Shown: positions 1-57,298, counted from the first letter of the stretch. The stretch: 64,000 nucleotides of DNA from Minisyncoccia bacterium (GCA_049997875.1 JBEKRC010000001.1:172609-236608), one strand, 5' to 3'. Notes: generated from the sequence alone by a model not told the origin. Numbers and translations are program-made.

Positions 1-20
1 TATCTCAACTTGCGTTTGCT

Positions 21-743
21 GTGGCAGATAGCGGCTCTTTGTGGGGCCTCTGCCTGCCATGGCAAAACCCAGATTGCGTGGGGGAGCCTGCTGGCGTGCG
101 ATGGGTCCTTAAAAAGGACGAGTCGCAACATAAAGAAGGATGTGTTGCCATGAACAGCAATGTGTCTGATTTCAGTGTGGGCCTTGCCCACGAATTTTGC
201 ATCACCGCAGCGAAAGCCGGATTGACTCCGGGTGAAGTCGGTGAACTCGCCAAAAATGAAGAGATGCTACGTAAGTTTCGGCAAGTACTCCTCGGCTATT
301 CCGAAGTGAAAGCGATTGAGCACGTCATTGACCTCGACGCTTCCCCGTTCATTCCCGGCGACTGGAAGGTGGAAAAGCACCAGAGGGGCGGTTCCTTCAA
401 GTGGGACCCCAAGCAGGTGCAACTCTACCTCTCCCCGAACCAGCAGAACGGCAAGTCCATTGAGGGCAACAAGCTCCGTACGGAGCTTGAAGGGAAGCCG
501 GTCTTCAACGCCAACCTCCTCGATTACCTGCTCAAGAATCCACACCTCATTCCCGAGGAGTGGAAGCGGGACGAGCAGGGTCGTACCCACTACATATTTT
601 TCTGGGGTACGATTTACCGCAACTCCGGTGGCAACCTGTGTGTGCGTTGCCTCTATTGGGACGATGACGGGTGGGACTGGAACTACGACTGGCTTGGCCG
701 CGGCTGGCGCGTGCTCAGCCCTGCGGCTCTGCGCGCAAGTTAG
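21..743 (+). CDS. DGR variable (target) protein; C-terminal ~40 aa encoded by the VR. A GTG at 21 is in frame with no upstream stop to the window edge, so the gene may start upstream; an internal ATG lies at 150.
   Basis: The ORF track protein ends ...NSGGNLCVRCLYWDDDGWDWNYDWLGRGWRVLSPAALRAS. Its last 120 nt are a diverged copy of the downstream TR, differing only at TR adenines. The W/Y/G-rich C-terminus fits the usual C-type-lectin/FGE-like DGR target fold (inference). Confidence 0.6.
   Translation: MADSGSLWGLCLPWQNPDCVGEPAGVRWVLKKDESQHKEGCVAMNSNVSDFSVGLAHEFCITAAKAGLTPGEVGELAKNEEMLRKFRQVLLGYSEVKAIEHVIDLDASPFIPGDWKVEKHQRGGSFKWDPKQVQLYLSPNQQNGKSIEGNKLRTELEGKPVFNANLLDYLLKNPHLIPEEWKRDEQGRTHYIFFWGTIYRNSGGNLCVRCLYWDDDGWDWNYDWLGRGWRVLSPAALRAS
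617..736 (+). repeat. DGR variable repeat (VR), 120 nt, 3' end of the target gene
   Basis: Aligns base-for-base with 1081-1200. There are 16 mismatches and every one falls on an A in the TR copy (A to G, C or T here). The last 18 nt, ccctgcggctctgcgcgc, are identical in both (IMH-like GC-rich end). Confidence 0.85.
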
Positions 744-805
744 GCACTTTGGACTGGGACCATTTGCCCTTCTCGGACACTCAGTCCTTTGTCCTTTTAT
801 TTTCT

Positions 806-838
806 CCCCGTGCTTTGGCGTTATGCTGGAGCACGGGG
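806..838 (+). promoter_or_regulatory. GC-rich stem-loop about 70 nt downstream of VR (DGR homing hairpin/cruciform candidate)
   Basis: ccccgtgct ... agcacgggg forms a 9-bp perfect stem with a 15-nt loop. DGRs commonly carry such a hairpin just 3' of VR (established knowledge); its function here is inferred. Confidence 0.45.
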
Positions 839-1080
839 ATTTACTTTTTGCTACAATGAAGGCGGCAGTAGGTGAATACGCGGGCGGTTACGGCTTCCCG
901 CTACCGAACCCAGTATCCTTACGCCCGGAGCATCTCCGGTTACGGCTTGAGATGGAGTGGCGTATGAATCTGAAAAAGTGAAGATACTTGGTGTAGCGTG
1001 CTATGGCATTTCAATGCCGAATACGATACAGCCCGGAGAGTATTCGACGGGCAGTGGCGCGGACGGCACGCTATACGCAA

Positions 1081-1200
1081 CCGCAACTCCGATGGCAACC
1101 TGTATGTGCGTTACCTCTATTGGAACGATGACAGGTGGAACTGGAACTACAACTGGCTTGACAACGACTGGAACGTGAACAACCCTGCGGCTCTGCGCGC
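1081..1200 (+). repeat. DGR template repeat (TR), 120 nt, adenine-rich (many AAC codons)
   Basis: Same orientation as VR. It carries A at all 16 positions that differ from VR. It lies between the target gene and the RT, and the sequence diverges immediately after gcgcgc (tattcgc here versus aagttag after VR). Confidence 0.85.
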
Positions 1201-1224
1201 TATTCGCTTCGCTTCTCTCCCGTA

Positions 1225-1554
1225 TCACGCGGGGGAGTTTTGTTTTTGAATCTGGCGAATCCATCCGCCGAGCATCTTGCCGATTTCGTCAAGCTGTTCC
1301 GATATGAGAGCGTATTGCTTATTATCAATCGCCTTTATCTCCCAAGTAATTTGTAAAAAGAATTTTACGAGGTCGAGTTTCGCCGCAGCCCTCGGGAGAT
1401 ACTGCAATTTTTGATTGGAACCGAGATAGGCTGCCGTGAAGATAAAGTCAATTGTTTCCACGAGCAGGCCGTCAATTTTTACGCCAAGCGTGTATCGCGC
1501 GTCTTTCGGGACACGCGGCAGAAAACTGTGCCAGACCTTGTACGCCGCCACCAA
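1225..1554 (-). CDS. avd: Avd-like accessory variability determinant (four-helix-bundle / 23S rRNA IVS protein family), encoded antisense to TR and RT
   Basis: 109 aa. The C-terminus ...EQLDEIGKMLGGWIRQIQKQN resembles the Bordetella phage Avd C-terminus (...VGRILGSWIARVNRK) and the four-helix-bundle family. The stop (tca, reverse complement tga) lies 25 nt after the TR end. Strand was checked by hand translation. Confidence 0.65.
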   Translation of the reverse strand: MVAAYKVWHSFLPRVPKDARYTLGVKIDGLLVETIDFIFTAAYLGSNQKLQYLPRAAAKLDLVKFFLQITWEIKAIDNKQYALISEQLDEIGKMLGGWIRQIQKQNSPA

Positions 1555-1611
1555 GTGTTGGATGATGGGAAGCGTAAGGTGTCGGGGGGGGTTACGTGTG
1601 AATTTTTATCC

Positions 1612-2610
1612 ATGAAGATACGATTGGCCGGCGGCTTCGAGAAAATCGCCGCGCTGGAAAATTTATTGGAAGCGTGGCGCGAGTTTTTGCCCAGCAAGCG
1701 CAACAAGCGCGACGTGCAAGAGTTCCAACTGCGCCTGATGGATAACATTCTATCACTTCGCGCGGATATTTTGAACGGTACCTACCGCCACGGCGGATAC
1801 CATGCATTCAACATCTCCGATCCAAAACCTCGGAGTATCCACAAGGCGGCCGTCCGCGATCGGCTTCTCCACCATGCGATCTATCGCGTGCTCTATCCGT
1901 TCTTTGAGCGGACGTTCATCTCCGATTCCTTCTCGTGCCGCGATGAGAAGGGGAACCATGCCGCACTCAATCAGTTCCGTTCCTTCTTTCATAGTGTGAG
2001 CGAGAATAACACGAAAACCTGTTGGGTTTTGAAATGCGACATCCGTAAGTTCTTTGCGAATATCGACCACACTACCTTGCTCGCCATCCTGCATTCGTAC
2101 ATTTCTGACGGCGAAACGCTGTCGCTTCTGCAAGAGGTGATTGGAAGCTTCTCTTCTACTGCGCCCGGCGTGGGCCTTCCGCTCGGCAATCTCACCTCAC
2201 AGCTTTTCGTGAACGTTTATATGAACGAGTTTGACCAGTTCGTGAAGCACAAACTGAAGGTGAGGCATTATATCCGCTACGCCGATGATTTTGTGATTCT
2301 CTCAAGCAATCGTGAATGGCTCAAAATCATCCTGCCGGAGATGGATGCCTTCCTCTGCAATAATCTCAAGCTCACCATGCACCCCGAAAAGATATTTATG
2401 AAAACGGCAGCCTCTGGCGTTGATTTCCTCGGCTGGGTGCATTTTCCGGATCACTGTGTGCTGCGGACGGCGACGCGGCGCCGGATGGTAAAGCGGTTGC
2501 GGGTTGCGGGAGAGAGGCCGGAGGTGCGCGCTTCGTATCGGGGACTCCTTTCGCATGGCAATACCTATAAAATCACGCGTGAAGTTTTTGGGCCGCAAGC
2601 ATATAATTGA
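1612..2610 (+). CDS. DGR reverse transcriptase. The likely start is the ATG at 1612; the ORF is open from 1411 but that part overlaps avd.
   Basis: It has RT motifs including YADDFVIL. It has the DGR-specific LPLGNLTSQ ([I/L]GxxxSQ, in place of the group II intron QGxxxSP). Size is 333 aa, and it sits directly downstream of TR. Confidence 0.85.
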   Translation: MKIRLAGGFEKIAALENLLEAWREFLPSKRNKRDVQEFQLRLMDNILSLRADILNGTYRHGGYHAFNISDPKPRSIHKAAVRDRLLHHAIYRVLYPFFERTFISDSFSCRDEKGNHAALNQFRSFFHSVSENNTKTCWVLKCDIRKFFANIDHTTLLAILHSYISDGETLSLLQEVIGSFSSTAPGVGLPLGNLTSQLFVNVYMNEFDQFVKHKLKVRHYIRYADDFVILSSNREWLKIILPEMDAFLCNNLKLTMHPEKIFMKTAASGVDFLGWVHFPDHCVLRTATRRRMVKRLRVAGERPEVRASYRGLLSHGNTYKITREVFGPQAYN

Positions 2611-2613
2611 GAT

Positions 2614-3192
2614 ATGTTGTACAGCGTCGCGGGGAAGTTAACGCTGAAGTCGGATCATTTTGCGGTGGTTACCGCTGCGGGGTTGGGGATCAAGCTGTTT
2701 GCAAGCAAGCAAACGCTCAAGGCGCTCCCGGCGGTCGGGGCGGACGTGAAATTTTTCACCCACCTTTACGTGCGCGAGGACACACTGGACCTTTACGGGT
2801 TCTTGTCGGCCGAGGAGATGAACTTTTTTGAAATGCTGATCTCGGTTTCTGGCATCGGCCCGAAGTCGGCGCTCTCTATCTTGGACATCGCGCCATTGGG
2901 CGAGCTTTCGGCGGCGATAAAAGAAGGACGGCCGGATTTGCTCACGCGCGCGTCGGGCGTCGGCAGGAAGACCGCCGAGCGCGTGATTGTTGAGCTGCGG
3001 GGGAAGGTGGAATCGGCGAGATCGGGATTGGTCGTGGAAAAGATGGAGGGCGATGCGGACATCGTGGAGGCGCTTACGAGTCTTGGATATCGGCGCGAGG
3101 AGGCGCGCGCGGCGCTCGGGAAGGTTGATCCGAAAGTACGCGGCATGGAAGAGCGGCTCCGGGCGGCGCTCGGCGCGCTCGGGAAAAAATAA
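2614..3192 (+). CDS. ruvA: Holliday junction DNA helicase RuvA
   Basis: MLYSVAGKL... N-terminal OB domain, HhH (GIGPKSA), and a C-terminal domain ...YRREEARAAL. Confidence 0.9.
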   Translation: MLYSVAGKLTLKSDHFAVVTAAGLGIKLFASKQTLKALPAVGADVKFFTHLYVREDTLDLYGFLSAEEMNFFEMLISVSGIGPKSALSILDIAPLGELSAAIKEGRPDLLTRASGVGRKTAERVIVELRGKVESARSGLVVEKMEGDADIVEALTSLGYRREEARAALGKVDPKVRGMEERLRAALGALGKK

Positions 3193-7901: not shown

Positions 7902-7912
7902 GGACGTTATAG

Positions 7913-7984
7913 CCCTCGTAGTTCAACGGATAGGACGTCTCCCTCCGAAGGAGAAGATTGAGGTTCAATTCCTCACGAGGGCAC
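7913..7984 (+). tRNA. tRNA-Arg (anticodon CCG)
   Basis: Hand-folded. Acceptor gccctcg/cgagggc, D arm gttc..ggac, anticodon stem tctcc/ggaga with loop ctCCGaa, and T arm tgagg-TTCAATT-cctca. CCA is not encoded. Confidence 0.8.
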
Positions 7985-20635: not shown

Positions 20636-20950
20636 GGGGACGCACTGGCTTTGATAAGGGCAAGCAGTGGGTTTGCGGGCCGAGGGCGACGACGTAACCG
20701 CCGCACAAAACATAACTGCCAACTCTAATAGAGTTACAGCTCCGGCATTCGCTTACGCGTAATGCCGGGATCGGTGAGTCCGGGTTCCTTGGGCTCATAA
20801 CCGGTCTTATATAAGGGGACTAGCCGCGGCGGACGATCCTATGCCGCGCGCGAAAATCAGGATCACGTTGCTAGTGTTCCACTAGACACGCCCGTAGACA
20901 GCCCACGCGCATTACCTTTACACGGCGGTTCGATTCCGCCCGTCTCCACA
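20636..20950 (+). ncRNA. ssrA: tmRNA (SsrA)
   Basis: 5' GGGGACG pairs with 3' CGTCTCC (one G-U). It has the T-arm GGTTCGATTCC and the 3' end ccgcccgtctcca (CCA not encoded). Internal ORF ...NRVTAPAFAYA-TAA. A TACAAT -10 box lies just upstream. Confidence 0.8.
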
Positions 20951-20962
20951 AATGTCTAGTGT

Positions 20963-37816: not shown

Positions 37817-37903
37817 TGGTGGGCAGGGAGGGATTTGAACCCTCACGACCTTGCGGCCATAGGCTCCTGGGGCCTACATGTCTGCCAGTTCCATCACCTG
37901 CCC
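37817..37903 (-). tRNA. tRNA-Leu (anticodon CAG), class II with long variable arm, CCA encoded
   Basis: The reverse complement gives GGGCAGG...TAGGC-ccCAGga-GCCTA-TGGCCGCAAGGTCGTGA-GGGTTCAAATCCCTCC-CTGCCC-A-CCA. Confidence 0.8.
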
Positions 37904-55067: not shown

Positions 55068-57017
55068 TTGCTTGCCATGAAAACGCCGTACCATCCGAAA
55101 CCGACTCGCTGTCCTATTTGCAAAAGAGGGACAGACTTTGCTTTTATGGAAAATTACAAAGATCAAAACGAAAAGCAATGGTCTCGCTATGAATGTTGCT
55201 CCTGCGCGGTGCAATTTTGGCTGCCGCTCGTCGCGCCCGAGGGAGATGCCTATGAGGAGGACGTTGCATATCAAGGAAAAAGCGAGGTGCTCTCCAAAAA
55301 AAATGCGCATGCAATCGTCCGCGGGTATTGGAACGCAAGACAGTTTCTTTCGGACTTCTCCAAAAAGGGCGCCGCTCCCAAGAAACTTTTGGATGTAGGC
55401 TGCGGGACGGGTGAATTCGCTTTTGTGGCGGGCGAACTTGGGTATCAAGTGGAGGGAGTGGACTTCAATGCGGGCGCCGTGGCGCTCGCCCGCGCGCGCT
55501 TCGGCCTCAGGGACGTTTTTGTGGCTGACGTTTACGCTTTTTTAGAAGACAAAAGAGAAGCCTATGACGTTATTACCGCTTTTGAGGTTATTGAGCATTT
55601 TCCCGATCCCGGGCGTTTTTTGGAACTGGCGCGCGGCGCTCTCACGGTCGGCGGCGTGCTTGTCCTTTCCACTCCGAACCGCGATCGCTACTGGGGGCGC
55701 ATCAATGCACGGAGCGAGTCATGGGATTTTCCTTACCAACATCTTTCGCGATGGAGCGTGCGCTCGCTCCGGAACTTCGCCGAGGACCGTGGCTTCGGTG
55801 CGGTCCGTATGAGAGAAGAACTGCCGACCGATTGGTTCGTGGAAAGGTTGCGGAGCGCGGCTGGCATGTTTTTGGGAAAGCCGCGGGCAGACGACCGTCG
55901 GAGCGCTTCCGAACGGACGCGGAGCCGCCTCGGGTTTTCAAGATACGAGCGCCTGAAGCGTGCGGTCCTCGCGGTTTGTGAGGTGCCCGCCGCAATCATG
56001 CATTTCATCTTCCGCTTCAAAGGGGTCCATCTGTACGGCGTTTTCATAAAGGATAGAACGGCGGATTACGGCCCGGTTGTCCGATGGCTTCGGAGCCCTG
56101 CACGCAAGCCAATCGTCCTTTCCATGAGCCGGTGGATCGGGCCCCTGCGCGTGCGCCTCCTCGCGTTCAAAGGATATTTCGCCGGCATATTCTCCCGCTA
56201 TGACCTGTACGCCTATCTGTTCAAAGGGGCGAAGAGCAGGACAAAAGAACAACGCTTGCTTCTTGCGTATTACCTTCAACGGGAAGCGACACTCGCGGCC
56301 ATCAAGCAGTTCGTCCGCGCCGATGGTTCTGTGGAATTCTGCGGCCGACCATTTTTTCCTTGCGAAGGGAATTACTGGGAAATGATGATGCTGTTTGACA
56401 GCACCGTGACAAAGGATCCCTATCGCGCGGAGCAGTTCTTAAAAGAGGATTCGGTAGTAATAGACGCTGGAGCGAACACGGGCGTTTTCACCGTCCTCGC
56501 TGCGACGCTCGCCCCCAGAGGGAGGGTGTATGCTTTCGAGCCGATACAAAGGACCTTCGCGGCGCTTATGCGGAATACCGAACGGTTGCGAAAAGAAAAC
56601 AGGGTGGAATGCCATCAAGAGTTCCTTGCAGAAAAAGATGGAGAGAAAGTCATGCGTGCGGCGCTTTCCGGATTCACGGGCTCTCTTGCCGAAGATAGTC
56701 CCTTCGTGCCGCACCAGGACACTTTTGATTTTGATATTGTGGAAAGAGTAAGAACGATCCGCATTGATGATTTTGTGAAGGAAAAACACATAAAACGCCT
56801 TGATTTCATTAAGATCGACACGGAGGGATATGAGCGGTTTGTGCTCCAAGGCGCGCACGAGACCATCCGCAGATTCAAGCCCGTCATTGCCATGTCTGCC
56901 TATCACAATCCCGACGACAAGGAAGTGCTGCTGGCGTTCGTAAAAAGCGCGTGTCCGGAGTATGTTGTGGAACTCTCGCAGGGCACCGAGGAGGATTTCA
57001 TTTGCTACGTCCCTTAG
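55068..57017 (+). CDS. fusion protein: zinc ribbon plus class I SAM methyltransferase plus C-terminal FkbM-family methyltransferase
   Basis: N-terminal CPICK...CCSC and LDVGCGTGEFAF. The C-terminal half has VIDAGANTGVFTVLAA and the paralog-conserved ending AMSAYHNPDDKEVL...EEDFICYVP. Confidence 0.7.
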   Translation: MLAMKTPYHPKPTRCPICKRGTDFAFMENYKDQNEKQWSRYECCSCAVQFWLPLVAPEGDAYEEDVAYQGKSEVLSKKNAHAIVRGYWNARQFLSDFSKKGAAPKKLLDVGCGTGEFAFVAGELGYQVEGVDFNAGAVALARARFGLRDVFVADVYAFLEDKREAYDVITAFEVIEHFPDPGRFLELARGALTVGGVLVLSTPNRDRYWGRINARSESWDFPYQHLSRWSVRSLRNFAEDRGFGAVRMREELPTDWFVERLRSAAGMFLGKPRADDRRSASERTRSRLGFSRYERLKRAVLAVCEVPAAIMHFIFRFKGVHLYGVFIKDRTADYGPVVRWLRSPARKPIVLSMSRWIGPLRVRLLAFKGYFAGIFSRYDLYAYLFKGAKSRTKEQRLLLAYYLQREATLAAIKQFVRADGSVEFCGRPFFPCEGNYWEMMMLFDSTVTKDPYRAEQFLKEDSVVIDAGANTGVFTVLAATLAPRGRVYAFEPIQRTFAALMRNTERLRKENRVECHQEFLAEKDGEKVMRAALSGFTGSLAEDSPFVPHQDTFDFDIVERVRTIRIDDFVKEKHIKRLDFIKIDTEGYERFVLQGAHETIRRFKPVIAMSAYHNPDDKEVLLAFVKSACPEYVVELSQGTEEDFICYVP

Positions 57018-57039
57018 AGTACCATTTAACTATAGACGA

Positions 57040-57298
57040 GGTTGATTTGACGCACGTTCGCCGGTACGAATTCGCAAGGCAATACGTTTCCGGGAAGAGC
57101 GTGCTGGATGTGGGGGGGGGCGCCGACGGCGTCGGGGCGGCGATCCTTGCCGAAGTTGCGGCGAAGGAACTGACGTTCCCGCAATTCTTTTGTCTCATGA
57201 ACACTTATTTCAGCCGTCCGGAATTCTTCGGACAAATTTTCTACAAGGAACCAATGTGGAAAACAAAAGTGCTTAATCTTATGAAACAGATGGCATGA
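57040..57298 (+). pseudogene. 5' fragment of a SAM-methyltransferase gene
   Basis: YEFARQYVSGKSVLDVGGGADGVGAAILAE (motif I) and then it ends. The 3' flank of the preceding gene is duplicated at 58555-58625. Confidence 0.4.

What the first reader, a model, noticed from the sequence alone, without database searches (positions are those of the whole stretch)
21..2610. Complete diversity-generating retroelement (DGR) with 16/16 adenine-specific VR/TR differences and an antisense avd
VR (617-736) and TR (1081-1200) are 120-nt direct repeats. Every one of the 16 mismatches is an A in TR replaced by G, C or T in VR, for example TR gacaacgactggaacgtgaacaac versus VR ggccgcggctggcgcgtgctcagc. This is the signature of DGR mutagenic retrohoming. 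It implies the target protein's C-terminal ligand-binding surface (...CVRCLYWDDDGWDWNYDWLGRGWRVLSPAA) is actively diversified. The RT (1612-2610) carries LGNLTSQ. A 9-bp GC stem-loop follows VR. The unusual feature is the Avd homologue (1225-1554) encoded on the strand opposite to TR and RT, ending 25 nt from the TR. Most described DGR cassettes have avd co-directional. The cassette sits immediately upstream of ruvA. The target gene may be 5'-truncated by the window edge.
Basis: partly seen in the sequence, partly recalled or inferred. Interest (0 to 1): 0.75.

Follow-up and report, generated by a model that had tools for sequence, protein, structure and literature searches.

The report
CPR retroelement with switchable avd gene
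This is a complete but ordinary diversity-generating retroelement of an ultra-small (Patescibacteria) bacterium. Its helper gene avd carries a slippery run of C's that looks like an on/off switch for the mutagenesis, and here it is set to off.

Summary
The repeat signature is real. VR 616-736 and TR 1080-1200 (121 nt) differ at 16 positions, and every one is an A in the TR (p~3e-10). A bRT-like RT, an Avd and a complete 197-aa target gene are present, so the DGR call stands.

The "unusual" antisense avd is not unusual. TR-(avd)-RT is architecture B3, reported for 90% of CPR DGRs, and 75 of 75 relatives with upstream DNA show it. The target gene is not truncated.

Two things emerged beyond the finding.

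1. The TR sits in its own ~380-nt RNA unit. It has a -10 box, a covariation-supported ~215-nt structured 5' domain, a helix bracketing the TR, and a terminator-like hairpin. Rfam has no match.

2. The G8 run at 1584-1591 lies inside the 5' coding part of avd.
- Relatives carry C6-C14 runs or 2-, 4- or 7-nt repeats at the same spot.
- In two populations with identical RT proteins, tract length and VR were the only differences over ~5 kb.
- The window's C8 is out of frame with its ATG; C6, C9 or C12 would be in frame.
- Its VR is identical in ten assemblies.

Known kind of element; apparently undescribed switch.

The parts
150..743 (+). Target gene, 197 aa, complete. It has three N-terminal helices followed by an alpha/beta domain that carries the VR at its C-terminus.
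   Evidence: ORF. 100% identical to a 197-aa NCBI hypothetical protein of a Minisyncoccia MAG, with 937 homologues of about 190-200 aa. No Pfam or NCBIfam hit. AF2 model pLDDT 94. Only weak C-type-lectin-like fold matches.
616..736 (+). Variable repeat (VR), codons 156-196 of the target.
   Evidence: 121-nt repeat; 16/16 mismatches fall on TR adenines.
744..800 (+). T/C-rich spacer after the stop codon with degenerate CTT(T/A)G(G/A) motifs. Function unknown.
   Evidence: Across 52 loci the motif occurs 2.2 times per 70 nt against 0.24 in background, with a preferred spacing of 8 nt. The window copy is degenerate.
805..849 (+). Terminator-like hairpin plus T run ending the target transcript.
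   Evidence: An equivalent hairpin follows the VR in 44 of 52 relatives.
849..857 (+). Extended -10 box TGCTACAAT, the putative promoter of the TR RNA.
   Evidence: A TAnnnT box lies mostly 11-12 nt before the conserved TAGG in 26 of 29 loci, 12 of them with TG. Inferred, not shown.
865..970 (+). 5' structured domain of the TR RNA. Helices: 871-874/902-905, 880-884/897-901, 918-925/959-966, 931-936/949-954. Two hairpins share the loop CGGTTACGGCTT.
   Evidence: On an unfitted MAFFT alignment of 20 loci, 94% of cells are paired, 21 of 23 pairs show compensatory changes, and 0 of 500 shuffles reach this. Direct repeat D6.
974..1079 (+). TR-proximal RNA domain. P1 991-1002/1065-1076, P2 1005-1009/1014-1018, P3 1031-1035/1048-1052 with conserved loop GAGAGTATTCGA.
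   Evidence: Unfitted alignment: P1 98.7% and P2/P3 93.9% of cells paired. Covariance model R1 gives 71 hits, all on the RT strand, essentially one per locus (two in L015, which has two avd copies), including 29 loci not in the seed; 95.5% paired, 20 of 22 pairs compensatory. No Rfam match.
976..983 (+). 5' strand of a long-range helix (AAGTGAAG). It pairs with 1207-1214 and so brackets P1-P3 plus the TR.
   Evidence: Compensatory variants in about ten or more lineages. Own-locus duplexes average 7.5 bp against 5.3 bp for mismatched loci.
1080..1200 (+). Template repeat (TR). It has 31 adenines and many AAC codons.
1207..1214 (+). 3' strand of the long-range helix (CTTCGCTT).
1215..1247 (+). 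Hairpin plus TTTTGTTTTT: the 3' end of the TR RNA (terminator-like, or an Avd-binding stem-loop). It overlaps the avd stop codon on the other strand.
   Evidence: Present after the TR in 48 of 52 loci.
1225..1583 (-). avd core, including the conserved N-terminal LPIIQHL upstream of the annotated TTG 1554.
   Evidence: Pfam bAvd 54 bits (cut-off 40). The NCBIfam Avd profile is matched from its position 1 only when LPIIQ is included. Translation.
1584..1591 (-). Homopolymeric tract (C8 on the avd strand, G8 on the + strand) inside the 5' coding part of avd. Putative contingency switch, here out of frame.
1592..1613 (-). avd leader codons MDKNSHV(T) from ATG 1613-1611. This ATG shares the palindrome CATG with the RT start codon.
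   Evidence: The nearest relative L109 reads MDKNSHVTPRHPTLPIIQHLVAAYKVW in frame across a C6 tract, and L110 reads in frame across C12.
1612..2610 (+). DGR reverse transcriptase, 332 aa, with LGNLTSQ and YADD.
   Evidence: RVT_1. Best solved relative is 8ub7_A, a 328-aa 'Reverse transcriptase' chain that I take from memory to be the Bordetella phage bRT, at E 2.8e-45, against about 1e-17 for group II intron RTs. More than 8000 close relatives, the named ones from Patescibacteria.

Best explanation
The region is a chromosomal, Patescibacteria-type diversity-generating retroelement (architecture B3 of Wu et al., clade 2 of Roux et al.). It lies between rpsT and ruvA.

Proposed mechanism:
1. A separate non-coding transcript of about 380 nt is made from a -10 box at 849-857.
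2. That transcript consists of a ~215-nt structured 5' domain, the TR, a helix pairing 976-983 with 1207-1214 that closes the TR in a loop, and a terminal hairpin with a U run.
3. RT and Avd copy the TR into cDNA and misincorporate opposite adenines.
4. The cDNA replaces the VR at the 3' end of the 197-aa target gene, rewriting about 15 codons of its C-terminal domain.

avd is transcribed divergently from the RT. The two start codons share the palindrome CATG, and avd contains a poly-C tract seven codons after its ATG. Slippage in this tract moves the Avd core in and out of frame, so the whole mutagenesis system would be switched on and off stochastically. In the window the tract is C8, which is out of frame; C6, C9 or C12 would be in frame. 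This DGR therefore most likely sits in the OFF state, which fits its unchanged VR.

Shown here: the repeats and their adenine bias, the gene identities, the conserved architecture, RNA covariation, tract polymorphism and VR turnover in relatives, and the frame states.

Inferred: the transcript ends, the role of the RNA domains, and that frame state controls activity.
For: - DGR identity: 16/16 A-specific mismatches. RT closest to 8ub7_A (taken to be bRT) at E 2.8e-45. Avd passes Pfam bAvd.
- Architecture: avd is antisense and abuts the RT in all 75 relatives with upstream DNA. The TR lies just 3' of the avd stop, with A-biased VR pairs in 51 of them. B3 is described in PMC5758913.
- TR RNA: covariation in seven helices. 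The bracketing helix has compensatory variants. The covariance model hits only the RT strand, essentially one hit per locus, 71 in all. Frequent G-U pairs fix the strand. The promoter box and both terminator-like hairpins are conserved.
- Tract lies in the avd coding region: the conserved LPxxQ motif starts 1-4 codons after the tract. There is no canonical start codon between them in 56 of 66 loci. The Avd profile starts at LPIIQ. The four repeat-free loci inspected all have an in-frame ATG.
- Tract is DGR-specific: 61 of the 68 G/C runs of 8 or more in 720 kb lie in this spacer. Other loci carry (AG)n, (AGCC)n or a 7-mer repeat at the same place.
- Frame states: 27 loci in frame, 39 out of frame.
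- Population data: with identical RT proteins, tract lengths are 8, 9, 11, 12 in one population and 10, 11, 12 in another. Full-length avd is called only when the length is divisible by 3. Tract length and VR substitutions are essentially the only differences over ~5 kb. A third population shows 20 of 20 VR changes at TR adenines.
- Window state: C8 is out of frame, while the nearest relatives read in frame at C6 and C12 with the same MDKNSHVT leader. The VR is identical in 10 assemblies.
Against: - No expression, cDNA or read-level data exist for this organism.
- An in-frame share of 27/66 (41%) is not far from the one-third expected if frame were irrelevant.
- Homopolymer lengths in short-read assemblies can be wrong.
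- An N-terminally shortened Avd from TTG 1554 or GTG 1551, or transcriptional or ribosomal slippage on the tract, could supply Avd whatever the DNA frame.
- The link between OFF state and frozen VR rests on one OFF population and three variable ones. The variable populations include out-of-frame tract alleles.
- The ten identical assemblies may all come from one clonal site.
- Single-sequence folding energy of the TR RNA is not exceptional (z = -1.5).
- Paul et al. 2017 could not be read, so prior description of the RNA domain or the tract cannot be excluded.
Confidence: 0.7

Rival explanations
1. The DGR is constitutively competent and the poly-C tract is not a switch. Avd would be made from the internal TTG 1554 or GTG 1551 start. 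Alternatively, RNA polymerase or ribosome slippage on the C run would yield a steady fraction of in-frame product at any tract length. The tract would then tune the amount of Avd rather than toggle it.
For: Public gene calls start avd at 1551 or 1554. Pfam bAvd is still passed by the short form. 39 of 66 genomes would otherwise be 'off'. VR-variable populations include out-of-frame tract alleles.
Against: The short form lacks the conserved LPIIQHL, which matches the first positions of the Avd profile. Repeat-free loci always keep an in-frame ATG upstream of this motif. Repeat units of 1, 2, 4 and 7 nt, never 3, sit at the same spot. Tract length varies within populations.
Confidence: 0.2
2. 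The tract-length differences are sequencing or assembly artefacts of a G/C homopolymer. The run would be a fixed oligo-proline linker or a 5'-UTR element with no regulatory meaning.
For: All evidence comes from consensus assemblies. Homopolymers are error-prone. Ten assemblies of the window organism and six of L091-L096 show no length variation.
Against: Lengths differ by up to 4 nt (8, 9, 11, 12) between assemblies that are otherwise identical outside the VR over ~5 kb. Lengths of 6-14 occur across 66 genomes from many projects. Non-homopolymer repeats occupy the same site in other loci. A pure linker would keep the frame, yet 39 of 66 do not.
Confidence: 0.1
3. In this population the DGR is simply inactive or decaying: a frameshifted avd on its way to loss, not a reversible OFF state.
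For: avd is out of frame. The VR is invariant in 10 assemblies. Roux et al. 2021 report lower-than-average activity for the Patescibacteria clade.
Against: RT, TR, the RNA helices and the Avd core are all intact and uninterrupted. The only defect is a 1-nt length state of a tract that is polymorphic in relatives.
Confidence: 0.15
4. The conserved structured RNA at 865-1079 is not part of the template RNA. It would instead be a 3'-UTR element of the target mRNA or an independent regulatory RNA.
For: Transcript ends were not measured. In the Bordetella phage the essential structured RNA (Sp) lies downstream of the TR, not upstream.
Against: A terminator-like hairpin and a conserved -10 box separate it from the target gene. 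Helix P1 ends 3 nt before the TR. The long-range helix pairs sequence 5' of P1 with sequence just 3' of the TR, with compensatory changes, which ties the domain and the TR into one molecule. It occurs essentially once per DGR, on the RT strand.
Confidence: 0.1

Closest known systems
Patescibacteria/CPR DGRs: architecture B3, TR-(avd)-RT (Wu et al. 2018, PMC5758913); DGR clade 2 (Roux et al. 2021, PMC8144416); Paul et al. 2017 (not readable here)
   Same: Same gene order and orientation. RT 58-85% identical to thousands of CPR RTs. Small target without a recognisable domain. Chromosomal location.
   Different: Nothing in the cassette plan differs. The papers I could read do not mention the repeat tract inside avd or the large structured RNA 5' of the TR.
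Bordetella phage BPP-1 DGR (mtd-avd-TR-brt)
   Same: Adenine-specific TR-to-VR transfer. RT with the [I/L]GxxxSQ motif, whose best solved relative is 8ub7_A (taken to be bRT). Avd accessory protein. VR at the C-terminus of the target. G+C-rich, adenine-free 3' end shared by VR and TR.
   Different: avd lies between TR and RT on the other strand and overlaps the RT start. The target is a 197-aa cellular protein, not a tail fibre. The hairpin after the VR lies 70 nt away and looks like a terminator.
BPP-1 DGR RNA (avd 3' end, TR, 140-nt Sp; Handa et al. 2018, PMC6182149, and bioRxiv 10.1101/2023.10.23.563531)
   Same: The TR is flanked by structured RNA. A duplex forms between sequence upstream and downstream of the TR (like their 'cPRT Stop' duplex). 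A stem-loop lies just 3' of the TR (like their Avd-binding stem-loop).
   Different: Here about 215 nt of structure lies 5' of the TR and only about 45 nt lies 3'. The 3' side is occupied by antisense avd. The priming site is unknown. That survey looked only 40 nt upstream of the TR.
Simple-sequence contingency loci (phase-variable genes of Neisseria, Haemophilus, Campylobacter)
   Same: A homopolymer or short repeat sits early in a coding region. Unit length is not a multiple of 3. Length is polymorphic within populations. Frame is on or off.
   Different: The controlled gene is an accessory factor of a targeted mutagenesis system, not a surface or restriction-modification gene. The host is a Patescibacterium. 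Switching rates and reversibility are untested.

Membership tests
Diversity-generating retroelement | TR/VR repeat pair whose differences fall at TR adenines | tested here: met
   16/16 at A; 0/90 at other bases.
Diversity-generating retroelement | RT of the DGR clade ([I/L/V]GxxxSQ in motif 4, YxDD) | tested here: met
   LGNLTSQ and YADD. Best PDB match 8ub7_A (taken to be bRT) at E 2.8e-45, against 1e-17 for group II intron RTs. No RT phylogeny was built.
Diversity-generating retroelement | VR at the 3' end of a protein-coding target, with AAY-rich TR codons | tested here: met
   VR covers codons 156-196 of 197. The TR read in the VR frame is rich in Asn (AAC) codons; this is my own reading of the sequence.
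Diversity-generating retroelement | Ongoing A-to-N turnover of the VR in populations | tested here: not met
   In the window organism, 10 assemblies have an identical VR. In three related DGR populations the feature is met: 20/20, 69/76 and 12/12 VR differences at TR adenines.
Diversity-generating retroelement | IMH/IMH*-type 3' boundary and a nearby GC hairpin | tested here: inconclusive
   An 18-nt adenine-free G+C-rich stretch (719-736 and 1183-1200) is identical in VR and TR, and the flanks then diverge. The hairpin lies 70 nt away and looks like a terminator.
Avd (bAvd, PF22296 / NF033474) | Score above the curated threshold | tested here: met
   Pfam 54.1 bits against a cut-off of 40. 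NCBIfam 71.5 bits, or 76.6 with the N-terminal extension, both below its cut-off of 80. PDB Bbp7/Avd 4dwl only E 0.79.
Avd (bAvd, PF22296 / NF033474) | Intact ORF from a start codon through the whole four-helix core | tested here: not met
   ATG 1613-1611 is out of frame with the core at C8. The in-frame stretch upstream of the core ends at TAA 1608-1606.
C-type-lectin-fold DGR target | CLec/FGE-like fold carrying the VR | tested here: inconclusive
Architecture B3 / CPR clade | Order VR ... TR, avd on the reverse strand, RT; Patescibacteria host | tested here: met
SSR contingency (phase-variable) locus | Repeat inside the coding region with a unit that is not a multiple of 3 | tested here: met
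   C8 lies seven codons after the ATG. Relatives carry C6-C14, (AG)n, (AGCC)n or a 7-mer repeat.
SSR contingency (phase-variable) locus | Length polymorphism within a population that changes the frame | tested here: met
   Met in relatives: lengths 8/9/11/12 and 10/11/12 with identical RT proteins. Not seen in the window population, where all ten assemblies have G8.
SSR contingency (phase-variable) locus | Reversible switching of expression and phenotype | not testable with these tools
   Needs reads, cultures or reconstitution.
Rfam RNA families | Match of the TR-flanking RNA to a curated model | tested here: not met
   Nothing at gathering score. Only two chance-level hits with E above 2 in 1-2800.

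The most novel reading that the evidence does not exclude
Patescibacterial DGRs are gated by a contingency locus. A hypermutable repeat (usually poly-C) in the first codons of avd switches the Avd reading frame on and off, so targeted hypermutation is itself phase-variable. The window shows the OFF state with a frozen VR. In addition, their template RNA is a rearranged DGR RNA whose large structured scaffold lies 5' of the TR instead of 3'.
Probability: 0.55. Interest if true: 0.75.

Novelty: new member of a known kind. Interest (0 to 1): 0.55.

Why it matters
The DGR itself adds nothing new. It is one of thousands of near-identical cassettes in Patescibacteria, and its antisense avd is the published norm for that group.

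What could matter is how a cell keeps a targeted mutator under control. Roux et al. 2021 left open why cellular DGRs, and the Patescibacteria clade in particular, show low and episodic activity. A slippage-prone tract in avd would give a simple stochastic answer. It would also offer a sequence-readable ON/OFF marker that can be scored in any metagenome.

The conserved 5' RNA domain gives a defined RNA to test in reconstitution of a CPR DGR. It could also seed a covariance model for annotating TRs.

Tried and rejected
- Rfam at gathering and permissive thresholds found nothing relevant.
- A search for further VRs in the 64 kb found none.
- Foldseek against PDB and BFVD found nothing significant for the target. 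The afdb50 library was unavailable.
- I first suspected the G tract was a promoter spacer between the divergent avd and RT promoters. I rejected this for avd because the conserved Avd motif begins 1-4 codons after the tract. An effect on RT expression is not excluded.
- My first register for the long-range helix gave only 53% pairing. Anchoring on the hairpin start failed in loci with small indels. I therefore replaced it with an own-locus versus cross-locus duplex test.
- ruvA adjacency as a sign of a conserved insertion site holds only for the closest relatives, L003 and L110.
- Public gene-call lengths are unreliable as an ON/OFF read-out. L110 is in frame but was called at 95 aa. I therefore checked the frame of the decisive loci from the sequence.
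- Paul et al. 2017 and a 2026 preprint on non-coding element mining could not be opened.
- The single-sequence folding z-score of the TR RNA is unremarkable, so the case rests on covariation.
Full report
**Observation.** They differ at 16 positions. Each is an A in the TR and a G, C or T in the VR. The TR has 31 adenines, 16 of which differ, while none of the other 90 bases does. The chance of this bias is about 3e-10. No other TR-like sequence exists in the 64 kb.

**Genes.**
- The RT (1612-2610) matches RVT_1 and carries LGNLTSQ and YADD.
- Its best solved relative is 8ub7_A, a 328-aa chain named only "Reverse transcriptase" that I take from memory to be the Bordetella phage bRT, at E 2.8e-45. 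Group II intron RTs score about 1e-17.
- The minus-strand ORF ending at 1225 passes Pfam bAvd at 54 bits against a cut-off of 40.
- The target starts at ATG 150, not at the window edge. The 197-aa product is identical to an NCBI hypothetical protein of a Minisyncoccia MAG, and 937 homologues are about 190-200 aa.
- The target has no Pfam or NCBIfam family.

**Is the antisense avd unusual? No.** I fetched 80 genome loci with RTs 58-71% identical, nearly all labelled Patescibacteria/CPR or unclassified MAGs.
- In every one of the 75 with DNA upstream of the RT, avd lies directly upstream on the opposite strand.
- In 51 of them an A-biased TR/VR pair was found, with the TR ending 4-58 nt from the 3' end of avd.
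- Wu et al. 2018 call this architecture B3, TR-(avd)-RT. [quoted passage not shown]
- Roux et al. 2021 place such elements in their cellular, Patescibacteria-restricted clade 2. That clade has targets without recognisable domains and lower-than-average activity.

As a cassette, the finding is a routine member of a known group.

**The template RNA.** The roughly 230 nt upstream of the TR is strongly conserved across these loci.

- TR-proximal domain: on MAFFT alignments not fitted to any structure, three helices hold in 94-99% of cells, with compensatory changes in 20 of 22 pairs. They are P1 991-1002/1065-1076, P2 1005-1009/1014-1018 and P3 1031-1035/1048-1052.
- 5' domain: four helices hold in 94% of cells, with 21 of 23 pairs compensatory and 0 of 500 shuffles reaching this. 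They are 871-874/902-905, 880-884/897-901, 918-925/959-966 and 931-936/949-954. Two of the hairpins share the loop CGGTTACGGCTT.
- Covariance model: a model of the proximal domain finds 71 matches in 776 kb. All are on the RT strand, essentially one per locus upstream of the TR (two in L015, which has two avd copies), and 29 are in loci outside the seed. There is one in the window, at 974-1079. Frequent G-U pairs fix the strand.
- Bracketing helix: sequence 5' of P1 (976-983, AAGTGAAG) is complementary to sequence just 3' of the TR (1207-1214, CTTCGCTT). Lineages with different sequences keep the pairing, for example AAAATAACA/TGTTATTTT and AACGAAGA/TCTTCGTT. Own-locus duplexes average 7.5 bp against 5.3 bp for mismatched loci.
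- Unit boundaries: a terminator-like hairpin and T run lie upstream at 805-849, and a conserved TAnnnT box lies mostly 11-12 nt before the domain (TGCTACAAT, 849-857). A second terminator-like hairpin at 1215-1247 closes the unit and overlaps the avd stop codon.
- Rfam has no match.

Handa et al. describe, for the Bordetella phage, a duplex between sequences flanking the TR and a stem-loop just 3' of it. Their survey of other DGRs used only 40 nt upstream of the TR. My inference is that in B3 elements, where antisense avd occupies the 3' side, most of the RNA scaffold lies 5' of the TR. The function of the individual helices and the priming site are unknown.

**The tract in avd.** The spacer between avd and the RT holds G8 at 1584-1591.

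- In 61 of 75 relatives the same spot holds a run of 7-14 G. Of the 68 G/C runs of 8 or more in 720 kb of locus DNA, 61 are here.
- The tract is not intergenic. Read on the avd strand, the conserved Avd N-terminal motif LPxxQ begins 1-4 codons after the C run.
- In 56 of 66 loci no ATG, GTG or TTG lies between the tract and that motif.
- The NCBIfam Avd profile is matched from its first position only when LPIIQ, which lies upstream of the annotated TTG 1554, is included.
- The four repeat-free loci inspected all have an in-frame ATG further upstream, and their leader resembles that of tract-bearing loci (MNQFDFH and similar). The avd ATG and the RT ATG overlap head to head.
- Other loci carry (AG)n, (AGCC)n or a heptamer repeat at the same place. 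None has a unit divisible by three.
- Across 66 tract loci, the Avd core is in frame with an upstream start in 27 and out of frame in 39.

**Population evidence.**
- For RT P0037, five assemblies with an identical RT protein have tracts of 9, 12, 8, 11 and 8 G.
- For RT P0053, the complete tracts in six of seven assemblies are 10, 12, 10, 10, 11 and 11 G; one contig is cut within the tract.
- Full-length avd (127-128 aa) is called only at lengths divisible by three.
- Over about 5 kb, the only differences between these assemblies are the tract length, VR substitutions, and one base adjoining the VR. Of the VR substitutions, 25/28, 19/20, 25/28, 6/6 and 6/6 are at TR adenines.
- A third population (RT P0114, tract G10, avd in frame) shows 20 VR differences, all at TR adenines, and nothing else in 6 kb.

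The clade is therefore active in nature, and its two hypervariable sites are the VR and the avd tract.

**The window copy.** On the minus strand, ATG 1613-1611 shares the palindrome CATG with the RT start and opens MDKNSHVT. The C8 run then puts the ribosome in a frame that ends after 44 residues at 1479. The Avd frame, read upstream, hits TAA 1608-1606.
- The nearest relative (RT 85%) reads MDKNSHVTPRHPTLPIIQHLVAAYKVW in frame across C6.
- A syntenic relative (RT 82%) is in frame across C12.
- Another relative (RT 81%) is out of frame at C11.

The window needs C9, C6 or C12, and I read it as phase-OFF. Consistent with this, ten assemblies from different samples match the window at every base they cover within 1-2700, VR and tract included. 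This is one OFF case against three variable populations, so it is a correlation and not a test.

**Limits.**
- Everything rests on consensus assemblies.
- Homopolymer errors, internal initiation, and transcriptional or translational slippage remain as alternatives.
- I found no paper linking DGRs to repeat-mediated switching or describing the 5' RNA domain. Paul et al. 2017 could not be read.

**Verdict.** This is a real, complete and typical CPR DGR. The stated reason for interest does not hold. The locus nevertheless points to an apparently undescribed control layer and RNA architecture shared by its whole clade.

Noticed in passing
window 57112-57120: This is the only other G/C run of 7 or more in the window: a G9 inside a short methyltransferase-like ORF (56951-57298, motif VLDVGGG). 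The ORF looks too short for such an enzyme, so this may be another frame-sensitive tract.
   Followed up: partly
window 998-1249 (+): An 83-aa ORF covering the TR is called as a gene in public annotations of the same contig (e.g. L081 2387-2638). It is the TR read in the VR frame and is almost certainly a spurious gene call.
   Followed up: partly
window 744-800, and the 70 nt after the VR in 52 loci: There are degenerate CTT(T/A)G(G/A) motifs, about 9-fold enriched and with a preferred 8-nt spacing, between the target stop codon and the terminator-like hairpin. No function is known.
   Followed up: partly
window 1747-1775 (-): A sigma-70-like site (TTCAAA, 17 nt, TAGAAT, with TG) lies on the avd strand inside the RT coding region, 134 nt upstream of the avd ATG. 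It is a possible avd promoter.
   Followed up: no
L085, L086, L093, L094, L095: Several contigs of the same populations begin inside or just upstream of the target's VR. This is as expected if VR heterogeneity breaks assemblies.
   Followed up: no
L015 2729-3332; L027 5009-5933: Some relatives carry a second TR-RNA/avd copy with its own G run (L015) or a second A-biased TR/VR pair (L027).
   Followed up: no
window 20636-20951, 7912-7984, 37817-37903: A tmRNA (tag ANSNRVTAPAFAYA), tRNA-Arg(CCG) and tRNA-Leu(CAG). These are ordinary chromosomal genes.
   Followed up: no
window 1-3192; L110; L003: The cassette lies between rpsT (just outside the window) and ruvA. ruvA also directly follows the RT in the two closest relatives checked, and L110 shows rpsT as well, but ruvA does not follow the RT in the other 78 genome loci. 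The position is therefore not conserved across the clade.
   Followed up: partly
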